Under the pieces are notes generated by a model. The model was not told the DNA's origin and ran no database searches. It was given only the letters and a program-made list of their open reading frames with translations. A DNA stretch of 64,000 nucleotides from a bacterium (GTDB lineage Bacteria; Patescibacteriota; Minisyncoccia; Moranbacterales; DUUL01): the NCBI GenBank assembly GCA_018675685.1, contig JABGXP010000014.1, positions 17,288 through 81,287 of the forward strand, in the 5' to 3' direction. Shown here piece by piece: positions 17,638-31,390 of this stretch (position 1 is the stretch's first letter; every line of letters starts with the position of its first letter). The position numbers were made by a program, and so were the translations under genes.

Positions 17638-17909
17638 GGGCAAAACCTCCTTTGTTTTCTGTGCGGTTAACATTTTTTGAAAATACGATTGCCAAAAAAA
17701 TACATCATCTCTGAAAAGAACCATTTCTATATAAGCATATTTTTTATTACGCTGTCAAGAAAGTGGCTATTTAAAAAAAGAGGCACTCCCGTCGTGATAT
17801 TTTCGACAAGAGTGCCAACGGTTCTTCGTGACAGTTTCCATTGCGAACCCATGTTCGCTTTTAATATACTTATTCCACTTTACAGTTCAACGTACTATTT
17901 TGCTTCAGA

Positions 17910-18275
17910 TCAGATGTCAATGATCTTGGGCTTTTTTGGACAAATCCAGGCTTCAGACTCACTTTCAGGATCCATTTCAGAATTACCAGGTTCTTGAAGA
18001 AAAAGTTTTCTAACTTGGAATCGTCCCAGATTCACCTCATCTGCTTCAATGACCAAATCTGCATTGCGGATCAAACCAGACCACATCGGCTCACTCAAAT
18101 CATTTTCATCTACAACGCTGTTTACTGTCGAGGTATTTGCCCCATCATTCAACAGGTCGTGTGCAGAAATAGCTTTTGAATCACCAAAAACTTGTTGTGG
18201 TTTGGAGTTGGTGTTACCAACGGAACTAAAATAAAACAGTGTGACTACAATGGCCACGATTAGAGTTATTTTCAA
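17910..18275 (-). CDS. Hypothetical small membrane-anchored/exported protein, first gene of the GC-richer cassette
   Basis: TTG start at 18275 with AAGGAG 8 nt upstream. N-terminal hydrophobic anchor MKITLIVAIVVTLFYF, then an acidic polar domain. Confidence 0.45.
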   Translation of the reverse strand: MKITLIVAIVVTLFYFSSVGNTNSKPQQVFGDSKAISAHDLLNDGANTSTVNSVVDENDLSEPMWSGLIRNADLVIEADEVNLGRFQVRKLFLQEPGNSEMDPESESEAWICPKKPKIIDI

Positions 18276-30350: not shown

Positions 30351-30407
30351 TTTTAACTAAAACTGTTTATTGCGAGAACTTTTTAACTGCTAGACACTTG
30401 AAAAAAC

Positions 30408-30436
30408 AAAAAAAAGGTTGTATTATGTAGAAGTTT
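30408..30436 (+). promoter_or_regulatory. Sigma70-type promoter for tRNA-Gln
   Basis: TTGAAA, a 17-nt spacer, then TATTAT, ending about 27 nt before the tRNA 5' end. Confidence 0.5.
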
Positions 30437-30463
30437 TCTTAAACAGTGTCAATATTTGAAAAT

Positions 30464-30534
30464 TGGGGAATCGCCAAGTGGTAAGGCACTGGTTTCTGGT
30501 ACCAGTATCGGGGGTTCGAATCCCTCTTCCCCAA
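30464..30534 (+). tRNA. tRNA-Gln (anticodon CUG)
   Basis: TGGGGAATCGCCAAGTGGTAAGGCACTGGTTTCTGGTACCAGTATCGGGGGTTCGAATCCCTCTTCCCCAA folds as a cloverleaf: 7-bp acceptor, anticodon stem CTGGT/ACCAG with loop TTCTGGT, T-loop TTCGAAT. It is near-identical in architecture to E. coli tRNA-Gln(CUG). CCA is not encoded. Confidence 0.85.
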
Positions 30535-30752
30535 CAAATAATAATAAAACACCCTTTAATGAGGGTGTTTTATTATTATCCTTGTTTGGAAATGAATTCG
30601 AACGGACAGCAGCAAGCGGAGCGAGCGCCGATGGATGCGATAGCATTCAGCGCTGTCCTGGACAACGAAGGCGAAACGAAGTGGAGACGAGGCGAGAGAA
30701 TCGTATGAAACTGAGAGATTGCTAATAGAAAGATGATATCTTCCCCAACAAA
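30525..30752. repeat. Exact 14-bp direct repeat TCTTCCCCAACAAA at 30525-30538 (tRNA-Gln 3' end) and 30739-30752, bracketing ~200 bp that includes a GC-rich segment
   Basis: Exact match seen in the sequence. The first copy spans the tRNA acceptor 3' strand plus discriminator, as in tRNA-associated att sites. Confidence 0.6.
30544..30572 (+). terminator. Hairpin terminator after tRNA-Gln
   Basis: AACACCCT-ttaatg-AGGGTGTT followed by TTATTATT. Confidence 0.55.
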
Positions 30753-30760
30753 AAAATAAA

Positions 30761-30796
30761 TAGAACGTACTATAGAACGTTCTATAGTACGTTCTA
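30761..30796. promoter_or_regulatory. 36-bp perfect palindrome of TAGAAC/GTTCTA half-sites
   Basis: TAGAACGTACTATAGAACGTTCTATAGTACGTTCTA equals its own reverse complement. A further GTTCTA lies at about 30800. It sits between the att-like repeat and the rbp promoter. Confidence 0.5.
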
Positions 30797-30905
30797 TTTT
30801 GTTCTATCTCGAGAAGAATTTAAGTGGATATCAATGACAAGTGATGTAAGAGTTTCCAGTCTAGCTAATAAAAAGCATTATTACCGAGACAATTTTTGAA
30901 AGCCC

Positions 30906-31045: not shown

Positions 31046-31327
31046 ATGGCAAAAAAACTATACGTAGGTGGAATTTCATATGACACTACTACAGATGCTC
31101 TTAAAGAGTTGTTTGCACAGGCTGGAACAGTTGACGATGTGGTAATTATCACAGACAGAATGACTGGTCAGTCAAAAGGATTTGGTTTCATTGAAATGGG
31201 ATCAGATGAAGACGCTACAGCTGCTATTGAAATGTTCGACGGAAAAGAAATTGACGGTCGATCAGTAACAGTAAACGAGGCTCGTCCTCGAGAAGAACGT
31301 CCTCGAAATGGTGGCGGACGATACTAA
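31046..31327 (+). CDS. RRM-domain RNA-binding protein (glycine/arginine-rich tail)
   Basis: ATG at 31046 with AAGGA upstream. RNP2 LYVGGI and RNP1 KGFGFIEM motifs; C-terminal RPREERPRNGGGRY. GC-richer codon usage, consistent with high expression. Confidence 0.85.
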   Translation: MAKKLYVGGISYDTTTDALKELFAQAGTVDDVVIITDRMTGQSKGFGFIEMGSDEDATAAIEMFDGKEIDGRSVTVNEARPREERPRNGGGRY

Positions 31328-31352
31328 TTTTTAGTATTTTCGAAACTTAAAA

Positions 31353-31378
31353 AAAATCCCCTTCGGGGGATTTTTTTG
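31353..31378 (+). terminator. Rho-independent terminator of the rbp gene
   Basis: AAAATCCCC-ttcg-GGGGATTTTTTTG. Confidence 0.75.
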
Positions 31379-31390
31379 TTGGGTGAAAAA

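What the first reader, a model, noticed from the sequence alone, without database searches (positions are those of the whole stretch)
30464..30810. tRNA-Gln with an exact 14-bp direct repeat of its 3' end 200 bp downstream, bracketing a GC-rich non-coding segment: att-like relic of an integration event
The last 10 nt of tRNA-Gln plus 4 flanking nt (TCTTCCCCAACAAA, 30525-30538) recur exactly at 30739-30752. A 14-mer coincidence at 200-bp distance is very unlikely by chance. Duplication of a tRNA 3' end is the classic footprint of integrase-mediated insertion (attL/attR). The bracketed ~200 bp contains a terminator hairpin and a ~110-bp stretch that is conspicuously G+C-rich for this genome: gaattcgaacggacagcagcaagcggagcgagcgccgatggatgcgatagcattcagcgctgtcc, with a GGACAGC...GCTGTCC stem. 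Two long apparent ORFs span it in the track (30456-30725, 30463-30708), but they run through the tRNA and are artefacts. I see two possibilities. One is the eroded stub of an integrated element, most of which has been deleted. The other is a small structured-RNA insertion (MITE or sRNA) that targets the tRNA-Gln 3' end.
Basis: seen in the sequence. Interest (0 to 1): 0.65.

Follow-up and report, generated by a model that had tools for sequence, protein, structure and literature searches.

The report
RtT-like repeat unit trailing tRNA-Gln
The 14-base repeat after this tRNA-Gln gene is real, but what it brackets is not a dead prophage stub: it is one copy of a conserved, folded, non-coding unit that trails tRNA genes in Moranbacteria and is built like the long-known but still unexplained RtT repeats behind E. 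coli tRNA-Tyr.

Summary
tRNA-Gln(CUG) lies at 30464-30535. TCTTCCCCAACAAA occurs exactly twice in the window (30525-38 and 30739-52), and no shuffle of the window gave two copies. The G+C-rich block is the highest-GC 100-mer in the 64 kb.

The "integration relic" reading does not hold. The block (30585-30710) is one unit of a conserved, non-coding, structured family. Units lie directly 3' of tRNA-Gln(CUG), tRNA-Gln(UUG) and tRNA-Lys genes in Candidatus Moranbacteria (CPR) and one untyped contig, often in tandem arrays of 2-4. Across 17 distinct units the helices are 91% paired (slid controls 41-49%), and 13 pairs show compensatory changes. G.U pairs fit only the tRNA strand, and no reading frame is conserved.

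Each unit starts with an inverted copy of its own tRNA's 3' end and many end with a direct copy of it, so the second 14-mer fits as that built-in copy. This is the architecture of E. coli RtT (tyrT operon repeats, rttR). Two units give full-length but sub-threshold Rfam RtT hits (30.1 and 23.1 bits; cut-off 45), so formal RtT membership is unproven.

A real serine-recombinase element does sit at this tRNA in a relative, but it landed between the tRNA and a unit that was already there.

Verdict: new variant of a known kind, function still unknown.

The parts
30398..30426 (+). Promoter-like site (TTGAAA-17-TATTAT) upstream of tRNA-Gln. It is the only such site between the upstream gene and the RRM-protein gene.
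   Evidence: Consensus scan, 10 of 12 matches. A consensus match only; not shown to be functional.
30464..30535 (+). tRNA-Gln, anticodon CUG
   Evidence: ARAGORN. Rfam tRNA 62.8 bits, E 7e-13, 30464-30534. 100% identical to the tRNA-Gln of relative L011.
30525..30538 (+). Left copy of the 14-mer TCTTCCCCAACAAA: the end of the T-stem, the acceptor 3' strand, the discriminator and 4 nt of trailer
30538..30579 (+). Hairpin terminator 1 (core stem ACACCCT/AGGGTGT at 30549-55/30562-68, followed by a U-rich tract), lying between the tRNA and the unit
   Evidence: Terminator scan. An equivalent hairpin follows tRNA-Gln in L004, L011, L012 and L037.
30581..30603 (+). Left arm: a degenerate inverted copy of the tRNA-Gln 3' end (CTTGTTTGGAAATGAATTCGAAC)
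   Evidence: 19 of 24 aligned positions match the reverse complement of the tRNA 3' end; duplex -16 kcal/mol, reached by 2 of 300 shuffles. The same arm is perfect in relatives: 26/26 in L011, 23/23 in L033, 22/22 in L050.
30585..30710 (+). Core of the RtT-like unit (match to covariance model R1). It contains helix P2 (30604-10/30652-58), hairpin P3 (30632-38/30643-49), the CTGGACAA box (30658-65) and the remnant of the P1 3' strand, GAGAATCG (30696-703).
   Evidence: R1 gives 86.5 bits, E 1e-22, and this is the only copy in the window. It is 83% identical to L012 copy 2 over 113 nt. Covariation is shown. No Rfam family matches it at E<=10.
30711..30738 (+). A+T-rich tail of the unit (…GAGAGATTGCTAATAGAAAGATGATA), homologous to the tails of the L012 and L037 units
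   Evidence: Alignment A2 and blastn window-L037 covering 30650-30727. The motif GATTGCTAATAGAAA is at 30717-31.
30739..30752 (+). Right copy of the 14-mer, read here as the direct copy of the tRNA 3' end that closes the unit. By analogy with the rttR 3' end, the predicted RNA 3' end is at A30748.
   Evidence: Analogous direct copies lie at the 3' end of the L034 unit (tRNA-Lys) and of every E. coli RtT unit. The rttR annotation ends exactly at such a copy.
30758..30799 (.). Hairpin terminator 2: a perfect 36-bp palindrome (30761-30796) between an A-run and a T-run, terminator-like on both strands
   Evidence: Terminator scan finds it on both strands; the exact palindrome was located.

Best explanation
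The segment between the two 14-mers is one unit of a family of tRNA-trailer repeats with the architecture of E. coli RtT.

A unit is about 125-150 nt, non-coding, and lies on the same strand directly 3' of a tRNA gene. It begins with an inverted copy of the 3' end of that tRNA. It then folds into a long helix, P2, that encloses a hairpin, P3. It ends with a strand that pairs back to the start (P1), and this strand is itself a direct copy of part of the tRNA 3' end. The second TCTTCCCCAACAAA is that built-in copy.

Shown: the family, its position next to tRNA genes, its tandem arrays, its conserved fold on the tRNA strand, and arms that follow the sequence of the local tRNA.

Inferred:
1. The unit is transcribed from the tRNA-Gln promoter. 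In the A+T-rich lineage this requires read-through of hairpin 1. In the G+C-rich lineage no terminator intervenes.
2. Its tRNA-like end lets the tRNA-maturation enzymes cut it out as a small RNA ending near A30748, as E. coli rtT RNA ends at its tRNA-like CCA.
3. The repeated tRNA-end copies drive gain and loss of units by unequal recombination or gene conversion with the tRNA gene. This would keep the arms matched to the tRNA.

The window copy is a single, partly decayed unit: P2 and P3 are intact, P1 and the left arm are degenerate. Its cellular role, like that of RtT, is not known. My best guess is an RNA that pairs with, or mimics, the tRNA 3' end and so influences tRNA-Gln maturation or use.

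The confidence given (0.6) is for the whole statement, including relatedness to RtT and action as RNA. That the block is a member of a conserved, structured, tRNA-linked repeat family and not an integration relic I hold at about 0.95.
For: Homologous units follow tRNA-Gln(CUG) in relatives L011, L012 (about 2.5 copies) and L037. They follow tRNA-Gln(UUG) in four higher-GC Moranbacteria loci (L032, L033, L050, L051) as arrays of 2-4 (taxonomy). One follows tRNA-Lys in L034.

Model R1 scores the window unit at 86.5 bits (E 1e-22). It also recovers units that were not in its seed.

Structure: across 17 distinct units, 90.9% of cells are paired against 41-49% when partners are slid. Thirteen pairs have changes on both sides, and 0 of 500 shuffles reach the observed values (the 9-unit set is). 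The G.U and U.G pairs in P2 and P3 would be mismatches on the other strand.

There is no conserved ORF: box spacing falls in all three phases and stops occur in every frame.

The unit is 83% identical between the window and L012, while the flanking coding DNA is 74-75% identical.

The arms track the local tRNA: GGGGAAG where the tRNA ends CUUCCCCA, GGGGAGG where it ends CCUCCCCA, Lys-specific in L034 and Tyr-specific in E. coli.

Link to RtT: the E. coli tyrT/tyrV units have the same layout, and rttR ends exactly at the tRNA-like CCA. The Rfam RtT model aligns full-length to two independent units, at 30.1 bits (E 5e-4) and 23.1 bits (E 0.048), and is the only family to match a unit end to end. 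A 15-nt box, AGGAGCGAAGCGACG, is shared (z 4.9).

Literature: rttR is one of the tyrT operon repeat units (PMC3318445). rtT varies in copy number as a 175-bp VNTR (PMC2658671). It is expressed (PMC4147364).
Against: The RtT link is sub-threshold. The Rfam gathering score is 45 bits, and the window unit and most other units give no RtT hit at E<=10. R1 reaches only E about 0.1 on the E. coli units. An HMM built from the E. coli units finds nothing significant, and the window core shows no sequence similarity to E. coli RtT beyond chance (z about 0).

A good intrinsic terminator lies between the tRNA and the unit in the window, and no separate promoter-like site was found, so transcription of this copy is uncertain.

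The window unit's own fold is not better than shuffles (z -1.3 to -1.5), and its P1 is reduced to about 4 bp.

Several A+T-rich-lineage units (L012, L037) lack the direct 3' copy, so that feature is not universal.

No expression data were available. The structure could serve single-stranded DNA rather than RNA.
Confidence: 0.6

Rival explanations
1. Non-autonomous mobile DNA (MITE-like or integrase-mobilised mini-element). The unit is selfish DNA that inserts at tRNA 3' ends. Its conserved hairpins are recognition structures for a recombinase or HUH enzyme supplied in trans, and the 14-mer pair is the duplicated target or att core.
For: The core occurs at three different tRNA species: Gln-CUG, Gln-UUG and Lys. 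Presence is patchy among relatives, with none in L004, L013 or L052. The unit is bounded by imperfect inverted repeats. In L034 the unit sits between two diverged copies of [tRNA-Lys 3' end + terminator], as after an insertion. tRNA-Gln is a proven integration site in UBA2772, which carries a large serine recombinase and a rolling-circle Rep. The covariation would equally fit folded single-stranded DNA of + polarity.
Against: There is one copy in the 64-kb window. Every copy found lies 3' of a tRNA gene or a tRNA-end fragment at the same locus, and none is dispersed. No recombinase is consistently adjacent. In L037 the recombinase element lies outside the unit. There are no hits in the viral, phage or plasmid collections. 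Tandem head-to-tail arrays with arms matched to the local tRNA are explained more simply by local duplication and gene conversion. Serine recombinases do not create 14-bp direct repeats (established knowledge).
Confidence: 0.14
2. attL/attR relic. A phage or ICE integrated into the tRNA-Gln 3' end and duplicated the 14-mer, and nearly all of it was later deleted, leaving about 200 bp of element DNA.
For: There is an exact, non-random direct repeat of the tRNA 3' end. The same tRNA hosts a 6.7-kb integrative element in a relative. L004 has the tRNA and terminator without any unit.
Against: The bracketed block is conserved with compensatory changes across many genomes and sits in tandem arrays, which an eroded stub would not do. 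There is no integrase fragment, no ORF with a Pfam hit and no phage or plasmid similarity. The hairpin just after the tRNA is at the position where unit-less relative L004 also has a terminator hairpin, though with a different sequence.
Confidence: 0.04
3. A lineage-specific structured RNA unrelated by descent to RtT. It arose independently in Moranbacteria from a fold-back duplication of the tRNA 3' end and only converges on the RtT layout.
For: All RtT model hits are below the gathering score, and most units give none. R1 and an E. coli-derived HMM do not significantly connect the two sets. The hosts are extremely distant (a CPR phylum versus Enterobacteriaceae) and no intermediates were found.
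Against: Of 4227 Rfam families, the only one that aligns end to end with units, in two genomes, is the one family defined by this same genomic context. The two share collinear boxes (GAUGAGAAC, GAGCnAAGCGAGA, GGAGCGAAGCGACG) and the same helix order.
Confidence: 0.2
4. A small protein gene (38 aa, 30594-30710, MNSNGQQQAERAPMDAIAFSAVLDNEGETKWRRGERIV), analogous to the tpr ORF annotated inside E. coli rttR.
For: An ATG-initiated ORF spans the block. E. coli annotation carries a 29-aa tpr ORF inside rttR.
Against: In other units the same frame is interrupted by stops, and the spacing between conserved boxes varies in all three phases. There is no Pfam hit. The variation pattern is compensatory base pairing, not codon-like.
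Confidence: 0.02

Closest known systems
RtT RNA / rttR (Rfam RF00391): the repeat units of the Escherichia coli tyrT-tyrV operon
   Same: Both lie directly 3' of a tRNA gene on the same strand, in tandem head-to-tail units of about 120-180 nt. In both, a 5' strand that is the inverted complement of the tRNA 3' end (T-loop / T-stem / acceptor) pairs with a 3' strand that is a direct copy of that end. This pairing closes a fold made of a long-range helix enclosing hairpins and a long purine-rich joining strand. They share boxes (GAUGAGAAC, GAGCnAAGCGAGA, GGAGCGAAGCGACG). In both, the repeat can extend into the tRNA trailer. Copy number varies in enterobacteria (PMC2658671), as it does here between genomes.
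   Different: The hosts are a CPR phylum rather than Enterobacteriaceae, and the tRNAs are Gln and Lys rather than Tyr. Model scores are below the Rfam cut-off (best 30.1 against 45 bits; none for the window unit). The left arm is much longer here (22-26 nt, reaching past the discriminator) than in E. coli (about 10-13 nt). No CCA is encoded. In the A+T-rich lineage, which includes the window, a terminator hairpin separates the tRNA from the unit and an A+T-rich tail is added. Many units lack the acceptor part of the direct copy.
tRNA-gene attachment sites of integrative elements (attL/attR of phages, ICEs and cis-mobilisable elements)
   Same: Both show a direct repeat of a tRNA 3' end flanking non-tRNA DNA. 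The same tRNA-Gln is used by a serine-recombinase element in relative UBA2772.
   Different: There is no integrase or other element gene, and the bracketed DNA is only 200 bp. That DNA is conserved, structured and tandemly repeated in relatives, and homologous units occur without the repeat.
Bacterial MITEs and REP-like repeats (e.g. Correia, ERIC, REPIN)
   Same: Small, non-coding, hairpin-forming, bounded by imperfect inverted repeats, and patchy among relatives.
   Different: The units are not dispersed. All copies sit at tRNA 3' flanks in tandem, their arms are copies of the neighbouring tRNA rather than of a transposase's ends, and no target-site duplication of fixed length is seen.
tmRNA, including permuted (two-piece) forms
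   Same: The tRNA 3' end followed by GGGGAnGAGGGAUUCGAAC resembles the junction of a permuted ssrA gene and the tmRNA 5' end. Rfam gives weak partial hits to tmRNA_permuted and beta_tmRNA (18-23 bits).
   Different: ARAGORN finds no tmRNA. Scores are far below the cut-offs (47 and 84 bits). There is no tag reading frame, and the A-rich stretch in L011 and L012 is just an optional A-U hairpin. There is no T-arm before the 3' strand.

Membership tests
RtT RNA (Rfam RF00391; E. coli tyrT operon repeats) | Lies immediately 3' of a tRNA gene, on the same strand | tested here: met
   The unit (30585-30710) starts 50 nt after tRNA-Gln (30464-30535), on the + strand. The same holds in L011, L012, L032, L033, L034 and L050.
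RtT RNA (Rfam RF00391; E. coli tyrT operon repeats) | The unit ends with a direct copy of the 3' end of the upstream tRNA | tested here: met
   The 14-mer at 30739-52 equals the tRNA's last 10 nt plus 4 nt. E. coli units end in AAUCCUUCCCCCACCACCA, the tRNA-Tyr 3' end. L034 has the tRNA-Lys equivalent. This is not universal: L012 and L037 units lack the acceptor part.
RtT RNA (Rfam RF00391; E. coli tyrT operon repeats) | A 5' strand complementary to that copy forms the closing helix (P1) | tested here: inconclusive
   In the family, P1 is 84% paired and the arms are perfect complements of the local tRNA end over 12-26 nt. In the window the arm is degenerate (19 of 24), P1 is reduced to about 4 bp, and the minimum-free-energy fold does not predict it.
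RtT RNA (Rfam RF00391; E. coli tyrT operon repeats) | Tandem repetition of the unit | tested here: not met
   The window has a single unit plus the start of a second period (14-mer and hairpin), about 1.3 periods of 214 nt. Relatives have arrays: L012 about 2.5, L032 2 plus 1, L033 at least 4, L050 3.3, L051 3.
RtT RNA (Rfam RF00391; E. coli tyrT operon repeats) | Scores at or above the Rfam gathering threshold (45 bits) with the RF00391 covariance model | tested here: not met
   The window gives no RtT hit at E<=10. The best family members score 30.1 bits (L032 309-457, E 5e-4) and 23.1 bits (L051 7224-7372, E 0.048), both full-length. Other units give none.
RtT RNA (Rfam RF00391; E. coli tyrT operon repeats) | Released as a discrete RNA by processing of the tRNA operon transcript | not testable with these tools
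   No transcript data were available. In E. coli, rttR is annotated from 8 nt after tyrV to the tRNA-like CCA.
Integrative-element att relic (attL/attR at a tRNA gene) | Direct repeat of the tRNA 3' end flanking the inserted DNA | tested here: met
Integrative-element att relic (attL/attR at a tRNA gene) | Integrase or other element genes, or their remnants, between the repeats, or similarity to known elements | tested here: not met
   No ORF has a Pfam hit. No frame is conserved. There are no phage, plasmid or viral matches.
Integrative-element att relic (attL/attR at a tRNA gene) | Bracketed DNA absent from, or unrelated in, relatives (an empty site with one att copy) | tested here: not met
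   Homologous, covarying units lie at the same place in L011, L012 and L037, and at other tRNAs. L004 lacks a unit, but its downstream synteny is broken, so it is not a clean empty site.
MITE / dispersed intergenic repeat | Many dispersed copies in one genome, with terminal inverted repeats and target-site duplication | tested here: not met
   There is one copy in 64 kb. The extra copies in L037 all lie within 1.5 kb of the same locus. Inverted ends exist, but they are copies of the adjacent tRNA. Only the window and the fetched loci could be examined, not whole genomes.
tmRNA (standard or permuted) | tRNA-like domain plus tag reading frame; detected by ARAGORN or the Rfam models | tested here: not met
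   ARAGORN is negative. Rfam partial hits score 18-23 bits against cut-offs of 47 and 84.

The most novel reading that the evidence does not exclude
RtT is not an enterobacterial curiosity but one branch of an old, widespread class of tRNA-trailer RNAs. In the Moranbacteria branch, each unit carries a 22-26-nt 'anti-acceptor' arm that is perfectly complementary to the 3' end of its own tRNA and changes with it. In this reading the units act through that pairing. Either they mimic a tRNA minihelix so that tRNA enzymes process them, or they sequester the 3' strand of tRNA-Gln (or its precursor) to tune its maturation or charging. Comparative genomics across phyla could then finally reveal what RtT does.
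Probability: 0.3. Interest if true: 0.72.

Novelty: new variant of a known kind. Interest (0 to 1): 0.5.

Why it matters
From memory, the repeats behind E. coli tyrT were sequenced in the late 1970s and rtT RNA was described in 1991. A 2024 preprint still calls its mode of action unknown (bioRxiv 10.1101/2024.07.17.603846). As far as I know, and as the papers I could search suggest, RtT is treated as an enterobacterial, tRNA-Tyr-specific oddity.

Here the same design turns up behind tRNA-Gln genes in a CPR phylum with tiny genomes, and behind a tRNA-Lys gene on one untyped contig. The fold is supported by covariation, and the arms follow the sequence of whichever tRNA they sit behind. This suggests the architecture itself is what is selected: a folded core capped by a helix made from the tRNA's own 3' end. 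It also gives many independent sequences with which to model the fold and ask what binds it.

It has a practical side too. Such units create exact repeats of tRNA 3' ends that look like attL/attR scars, and they break short-read assemblies at tRNA genes. Island- and prophage-finding methods that rely on tRNA-end repeats could miscall them.

Tried and rejected
1. Other copies in the window: blastn and model R1 find only one.
2. Rfam on the window block: no family at E<=10.
3. Same-population contigs L001-L003: 100% identical, so uninformative.
4. Viral-contig scans with five patterns: either nothing, or hits that share only the short motif or lie in coding sequence, with no blastn or R1 support.
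5. blastn against the phage and plasmid collections: no match.
6. Metagenome hit L036: a chance match.
7. tmRNA or permuted tmRNA: the resemblance of GGGGAAGAGGGAUUCGAAC and the A-rich stretch to a tmRNA 5' end and resume region was followed up. The A-rich stretch is an optional A-U hairpin that is absent from other units. ARAGORN is negative and Rfam scores are far below the cut-offs.
8. Hammerhead or other small ribozyme: the three-way-junction idea was compared by eye with the hammerhead core recalled from memory (CUGANGA/GAAA). CUGGACAA does not fit it, and no ribozyme family appears in any Rfam scan.
9. Small protein: frames are not conserved.
10. Reciprocal link to E. coli RtT: R1 gives only E about 0.1 on the E. 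coli locus, although its top four hits fall on the four RtT units. An HMM built from the E. coli units gives nothing significant.
11. More relatives through the AdoMet_dc neighbours P0006, P0008 and P0010: their contigs end at or just after the tRNA-Gln position, so they yielded no units.
12. The Boesl and Kersten 1991 paper could not be retrieved.
Full report
**1. The observation**

ARAGORN places tRNA-Gln(CUG) at 30464-30535. Rfam's tRNA model gives 62.8 bits over 30464-30534.

TCTTCCCCAACAAA occurs at 30525-30538 and 30739-30752 and nowhere else in the 64 kb, even when one mismatch is allowed. The expected count is 0.08, and none of 100 dinucleotide-preserving shuffles had two copies.

Between the two copies lie a hairpin terminator (30538-30579) and a G+C-rich block. 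The 100-mer starting at 30601 is 59% G+C in a 36% G+C window, the highest value found anywhere in it.

They run through the tRNA and have no Pfam match.

**2. Who the organism is, and the first comparisons**

The flanking genes place the window in Patescibacteria/CPR, next to Candidatus Moraniibacteriota.

Three metagenome contigs carrying the same upstream protein are 100% identical across the whole intergenic region. They are the same population and say nothing about an empty site.

More distant relatives were reached through the S-adenosylmethionine-decarboxylase-like gene just upstream of the tRNA.

In L004 the tRNA-Gln is followed by a terminator hairpin and then unrelated DNA.

In L005/L037 (UBA2772) the tRNA-Gln is abutted by a 516-aa large serine recombinase (Resolvase, Recombinase and zinc-ribbon domains) and a rolling-circle Rep. 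So this tRNA really is an integration site in the lineage.

**3. The bracketed block is a conserved unit**

L011 and L012 carry sequence homologous to the window's G+C-rich block, again right after tRNA-Gln and its hairpin. L012 holds about 2.5 tandem copies. The window block is 83% identical to L012 copy 2 over 113 nt (E 3e-29). The flanking protein-coding DNA of the same two genomes is only 74-75% identical.

A single metagenome scan with a motif spanning two conserved boxes found further members:
- L032 and L033 (53-55% G+C) have several units after tRNA-Gln(UUG).
- L034 has one unit after tRNA-Lys(CUU).
- L035 proved to be part of the UBA2772 contig.

The DnaX protein encoded next to the L033 array is 65-69% identical to proteins of named Moranbacteria MAGs, so these higher-GC hosts belong to the same phylum.

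Following dnaX into three long contigs gave two more arrays of three units each (L050, L051) and one tRNA-Gln(UUG) with no unit (L052).

A covariance model built from nine units (R1) scores the window block at 86.5 bits (E 1e-22). It finds no second copy in the window. It recovers units that were not used to build it, and it finds nothing in L004, L013 or L052.

**4. Structure, strand and coding**

An outer helix P1 closes the unit.

On nine units, P2 and P3 are 97% paired, and 10 of their 15 pairs carry changes on both sides.

On 17 distinct units the whole structure is 90.9% paired, against 41-49% when the 3' partners are slid by one to three columns. Thirteen pairs carry double changes, and no shuffle of 500 reaches the observed pairing, double-change counts or covariation score. 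That alignment was fitted to the model, which favours the structure. However, the first count was made on a plain MAFFT alignment, and the compensations are visible by eye (GGACAGC/GCUGUCC, GGGUAGC/GCUACCC, CGGUGGC/GCCACCG; UGGAUU/GAUUCA, CAGGUC/GACUUG, CAAAUG/CAUUUG).

The G.U and U.G pairs would be A.C mismatches on the other strand, so the folded strand is the tRNA's strand.

The spacing between conserved boxes falls in all three phases, and every frame is broken by stops in several units. The conservation is therefore structural and not coding.

The window copy on its own does not fold better than shuffled sequence (z -1.3 to -1.5). The evidence for structure is comparative.

**5. The arms come from the neighbouring tRNA**

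Each unit begins with an inverted copy of the 3' end of the tRNA it follows:
- 26 of 26 nt in L011
- 23 of 23 in L033
- 22 of 22 in L050
- 16 of 16 in L012 copy 1
- 12 of 12 behind tRNA-Lys in L034
- a degenerate 19 of 24 in the window, at 30581-30603

The arm follows the tRNA. It reads GGGGAAG where the tRNA ends CUUCCCCA and GGGGAGG where it ends CCUCCCCA.

The 3' strand of P1 is a direct copy of the T-loop and T-stem part of the same tRNA end. In L034 it continues through the acceptor strand and into a diverged second copy of the tRNA's terminator. That gives the same layout as the window: tRNA, hairpin, unit, tRNA-end copy, hairpin.

On this reading the window's second 14-mer belongs to the unit's 3' end. 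The locus is then about 1.3 periods of a 214-nt repeat made of tRNA end, hairpin and core.

**6. The known thing it resembles**

Rfam's RtT model (RF00391) aligns full-length to L032 309-457 at 30.1 bits (E 5e-4 in 401 nt, 0.007 in 5.5 kb). It also aligns full-length to an independent unit in another genome, L051 7224-7372, at 23.1 bits (E 0.048). Both scores are below the gathering score of 45.

RtT is the repeat unit of the E. coli tyrT operon, and rttR is encoded by one of these units (PMC3318445).

Reading the K-12 locus shows one unit between tyrT and tyrV and three after tyrV. Each starts with GGGGAAGGAU, which pairs with the AUCCUUCCCC of a terminal copy of the tRNA-Tyr 3' end (...CCACCACCA). 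The repeat period includes the tRNA trailer. The annotated rttR ends exactly at the first such CCA.

The helix order in the Rfam consensus (P1, then a long-range helix enclosing hairpins, then a long 3' joining strand) matches the Moranbacteria units. So do three boxes, including an exact 15-mer, AGGAGCGAAGCGACG (z 4.9 against shuffles).

In enterobacteria rtT varies in copy number (PMC2658671) and is expressed (PMC4147364). Its mode of action is still called unknown (bioRxiv 10.1101/2024.07.17.603846).

**7. Limits of that link**

- The window unit and most other units give no RtT hit at E<=10.
- R1 reaches only E about 0.1 on the E. coli locus, although its four best hits are the four RtT units on the right strand.
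- An HMM of the E. coli units finds nothing significant, and the window core has no sequence similarity to them beyond chance.

The chain therefore has two links of different strength. The window to the Moranbacteria family is very strong. The family to RtT is suggestive, resting on two sub-threshold full-length matches, identical genomic context and identical design. I treat it as "works like RtT, probably related, membership not proven".

**8. Why it is not an integration relic**

An eroded stub would not be conserved with compensatory changes, would not be more similar between species than the neighbouring genes, and would not stand in tandem arrays.

The block has no similarity to phage or plasmid records or viral contigs.

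The UBA2772 locus is the most telling. Its order is tRNA-Gln (L037 11170-11243), then a 6.7-kb element with the serine recombinase, Rep, a methylase and an HNH gene, then a degenerate tRNA 3' end (about 17875-17905), then the usual hairpin and the unit (17935-18083). The mobile element landed between the tRNA and a unit that was already there.

**9. How it most likely works**

Shown: position, arrays, fold, strand, and arms matched to the tRNA.

Inferred:
1. Transcription from the tRNA promoter. The only promoter-like site lies at 30398-30426. In the higher-GC members nothing that looks like a terminator separates the tRNA from the first unit, and the L033 array ends at a strong terminator. 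In the window's lineage a good hairpin terminator intervenes, so expression would depend on read-through.
2. Excision by the tRNA-maturation machinery. P1 plus the tRNA-end copy imitates the acceptor/T-stem helix, and rttR ends at the tRNA-like CCA. By analogy the window RNA would end near A30748.
3. Gain, loss and homogenisation of units by unequal recombination or gene conversion between the tRNA-end copies. This also explains why short-read contigs break at this locus.

The long arm, complementary to the tRNA's own 3' strand and far longer than P1 needs, hints at pairing with tRNA-Gln or its precursor. That step is speculation.

The window copy has intact P2 and P3 but a decayed arm and P1. 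It may be a fading member of the family.

**10. Verdict**

- The element is a new variant of a known kind: an RtT-like tRNA-trailer unit in a CPR phylum, behind tRNA-Gln here and behind tRNA-Lys on one untyped contig.
- Interest is moderate. It extends a decades-old unexplained element to a very distant lineage and supplies covariation, but the function remains unknown and the homology to RtT is not yet proven.

Noticed in passing
L037 11141-~17905 (UBA2772; the same genome as L005 and L035): A ~6.7-kb integrative element sits at the tRNA-Gln 3' end. It carries a large serine recombinase whose ORF reads antisense through the whole tRNA, a rolling-circle Rep (PF23343), an EcoRI-type methylase and an HNH protein. 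The right junction is a degenerate tRNA end, ACATTCGAACTTCATCCCACAG|CCCCAACAGC. The 10-mer CATCCCACAG also precedes the third unit in L032 (about 1093-1102), which hints at related elements there.
   Followed up: partly
L051 6813-6884: The tRNA-Gln(UUG) ahead of a three-unit array has its T-loop and T-stem 3' strand replaced (GGGGGTGGGGATAACACCTCCCCAACA). ARAGORN does not call it, and Rfam tRNA drops to 32 bits from about 61 in the sister loci. It is either a damaged gene at a recombination-prone site or an assembly artefact.
   Followed up: partly
L012 6623-6700, and the last ~37 nt of L039, L040 and L041: The 5' end of tRNA-Gln (TTGGGGAATCGC) is duplicated upstream of the gene and followed by a G+C-rich ~18-nt insertion (CCACCCGAGGCGGGCAGG / TCCACCCAAGGCGGACAGG). 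So the 5' side of this tRNA also carries small G+C-rich modules with tRNA-end duplications. R1 does not match them.
   Followed up: no
window 30761-30796 (hairpin 30758-30799): A perfect 36-bp palindrome, TAGAACGTACTATAGAACGTTCTATAGTACGTTCTA, lies between an A-run and a T-run and is terminator-like on both strands. A similar CTATAG-centred palindrome follows a partial unit in L035 at about 1805-1860. It contains repeated GAAC/GTTC half-sites, so a protein-binding role cannot be excluded.
   Followed up: partly
window 30351-30463, compared with L004 4380-5144, L005 4375-5127 and L039-L042: The window's species lacks the F420-0:gamma-glutamyl-ligase-like gene (PF01996) that lies between the AdoMet_dc-like gene and tRNA-Gln in most relatives. 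L011 and L012 lack it too.
   Followed up: no
Ends of L011, L038, L039-L041 and L043: Independent short-read assemblies break at or just after the tRNA-Gln (L043 about 160 nt after the upstream gene). This fits repeated or polymorphic sequence at the locus.
   Followed up: partly
L033 4560-5850: An A+T-rich ~1.3-kb insert with two small minus-strand ORFs (one a 157-aa membrane-like protein) splits the G+C-rich unit array. It looks like foreign DNA captured inside the array.
   Followed up: no
window 31046-31327, with the terminator around 31350-31385: A 93-aa RRM-type RNA-binding protein gene (PF00076) follows the tRNA-Gln/unit locus and has its own strong terminator. The pairing with the unit is not conserved in relatives, so no link is claimed.
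   Followed up: no
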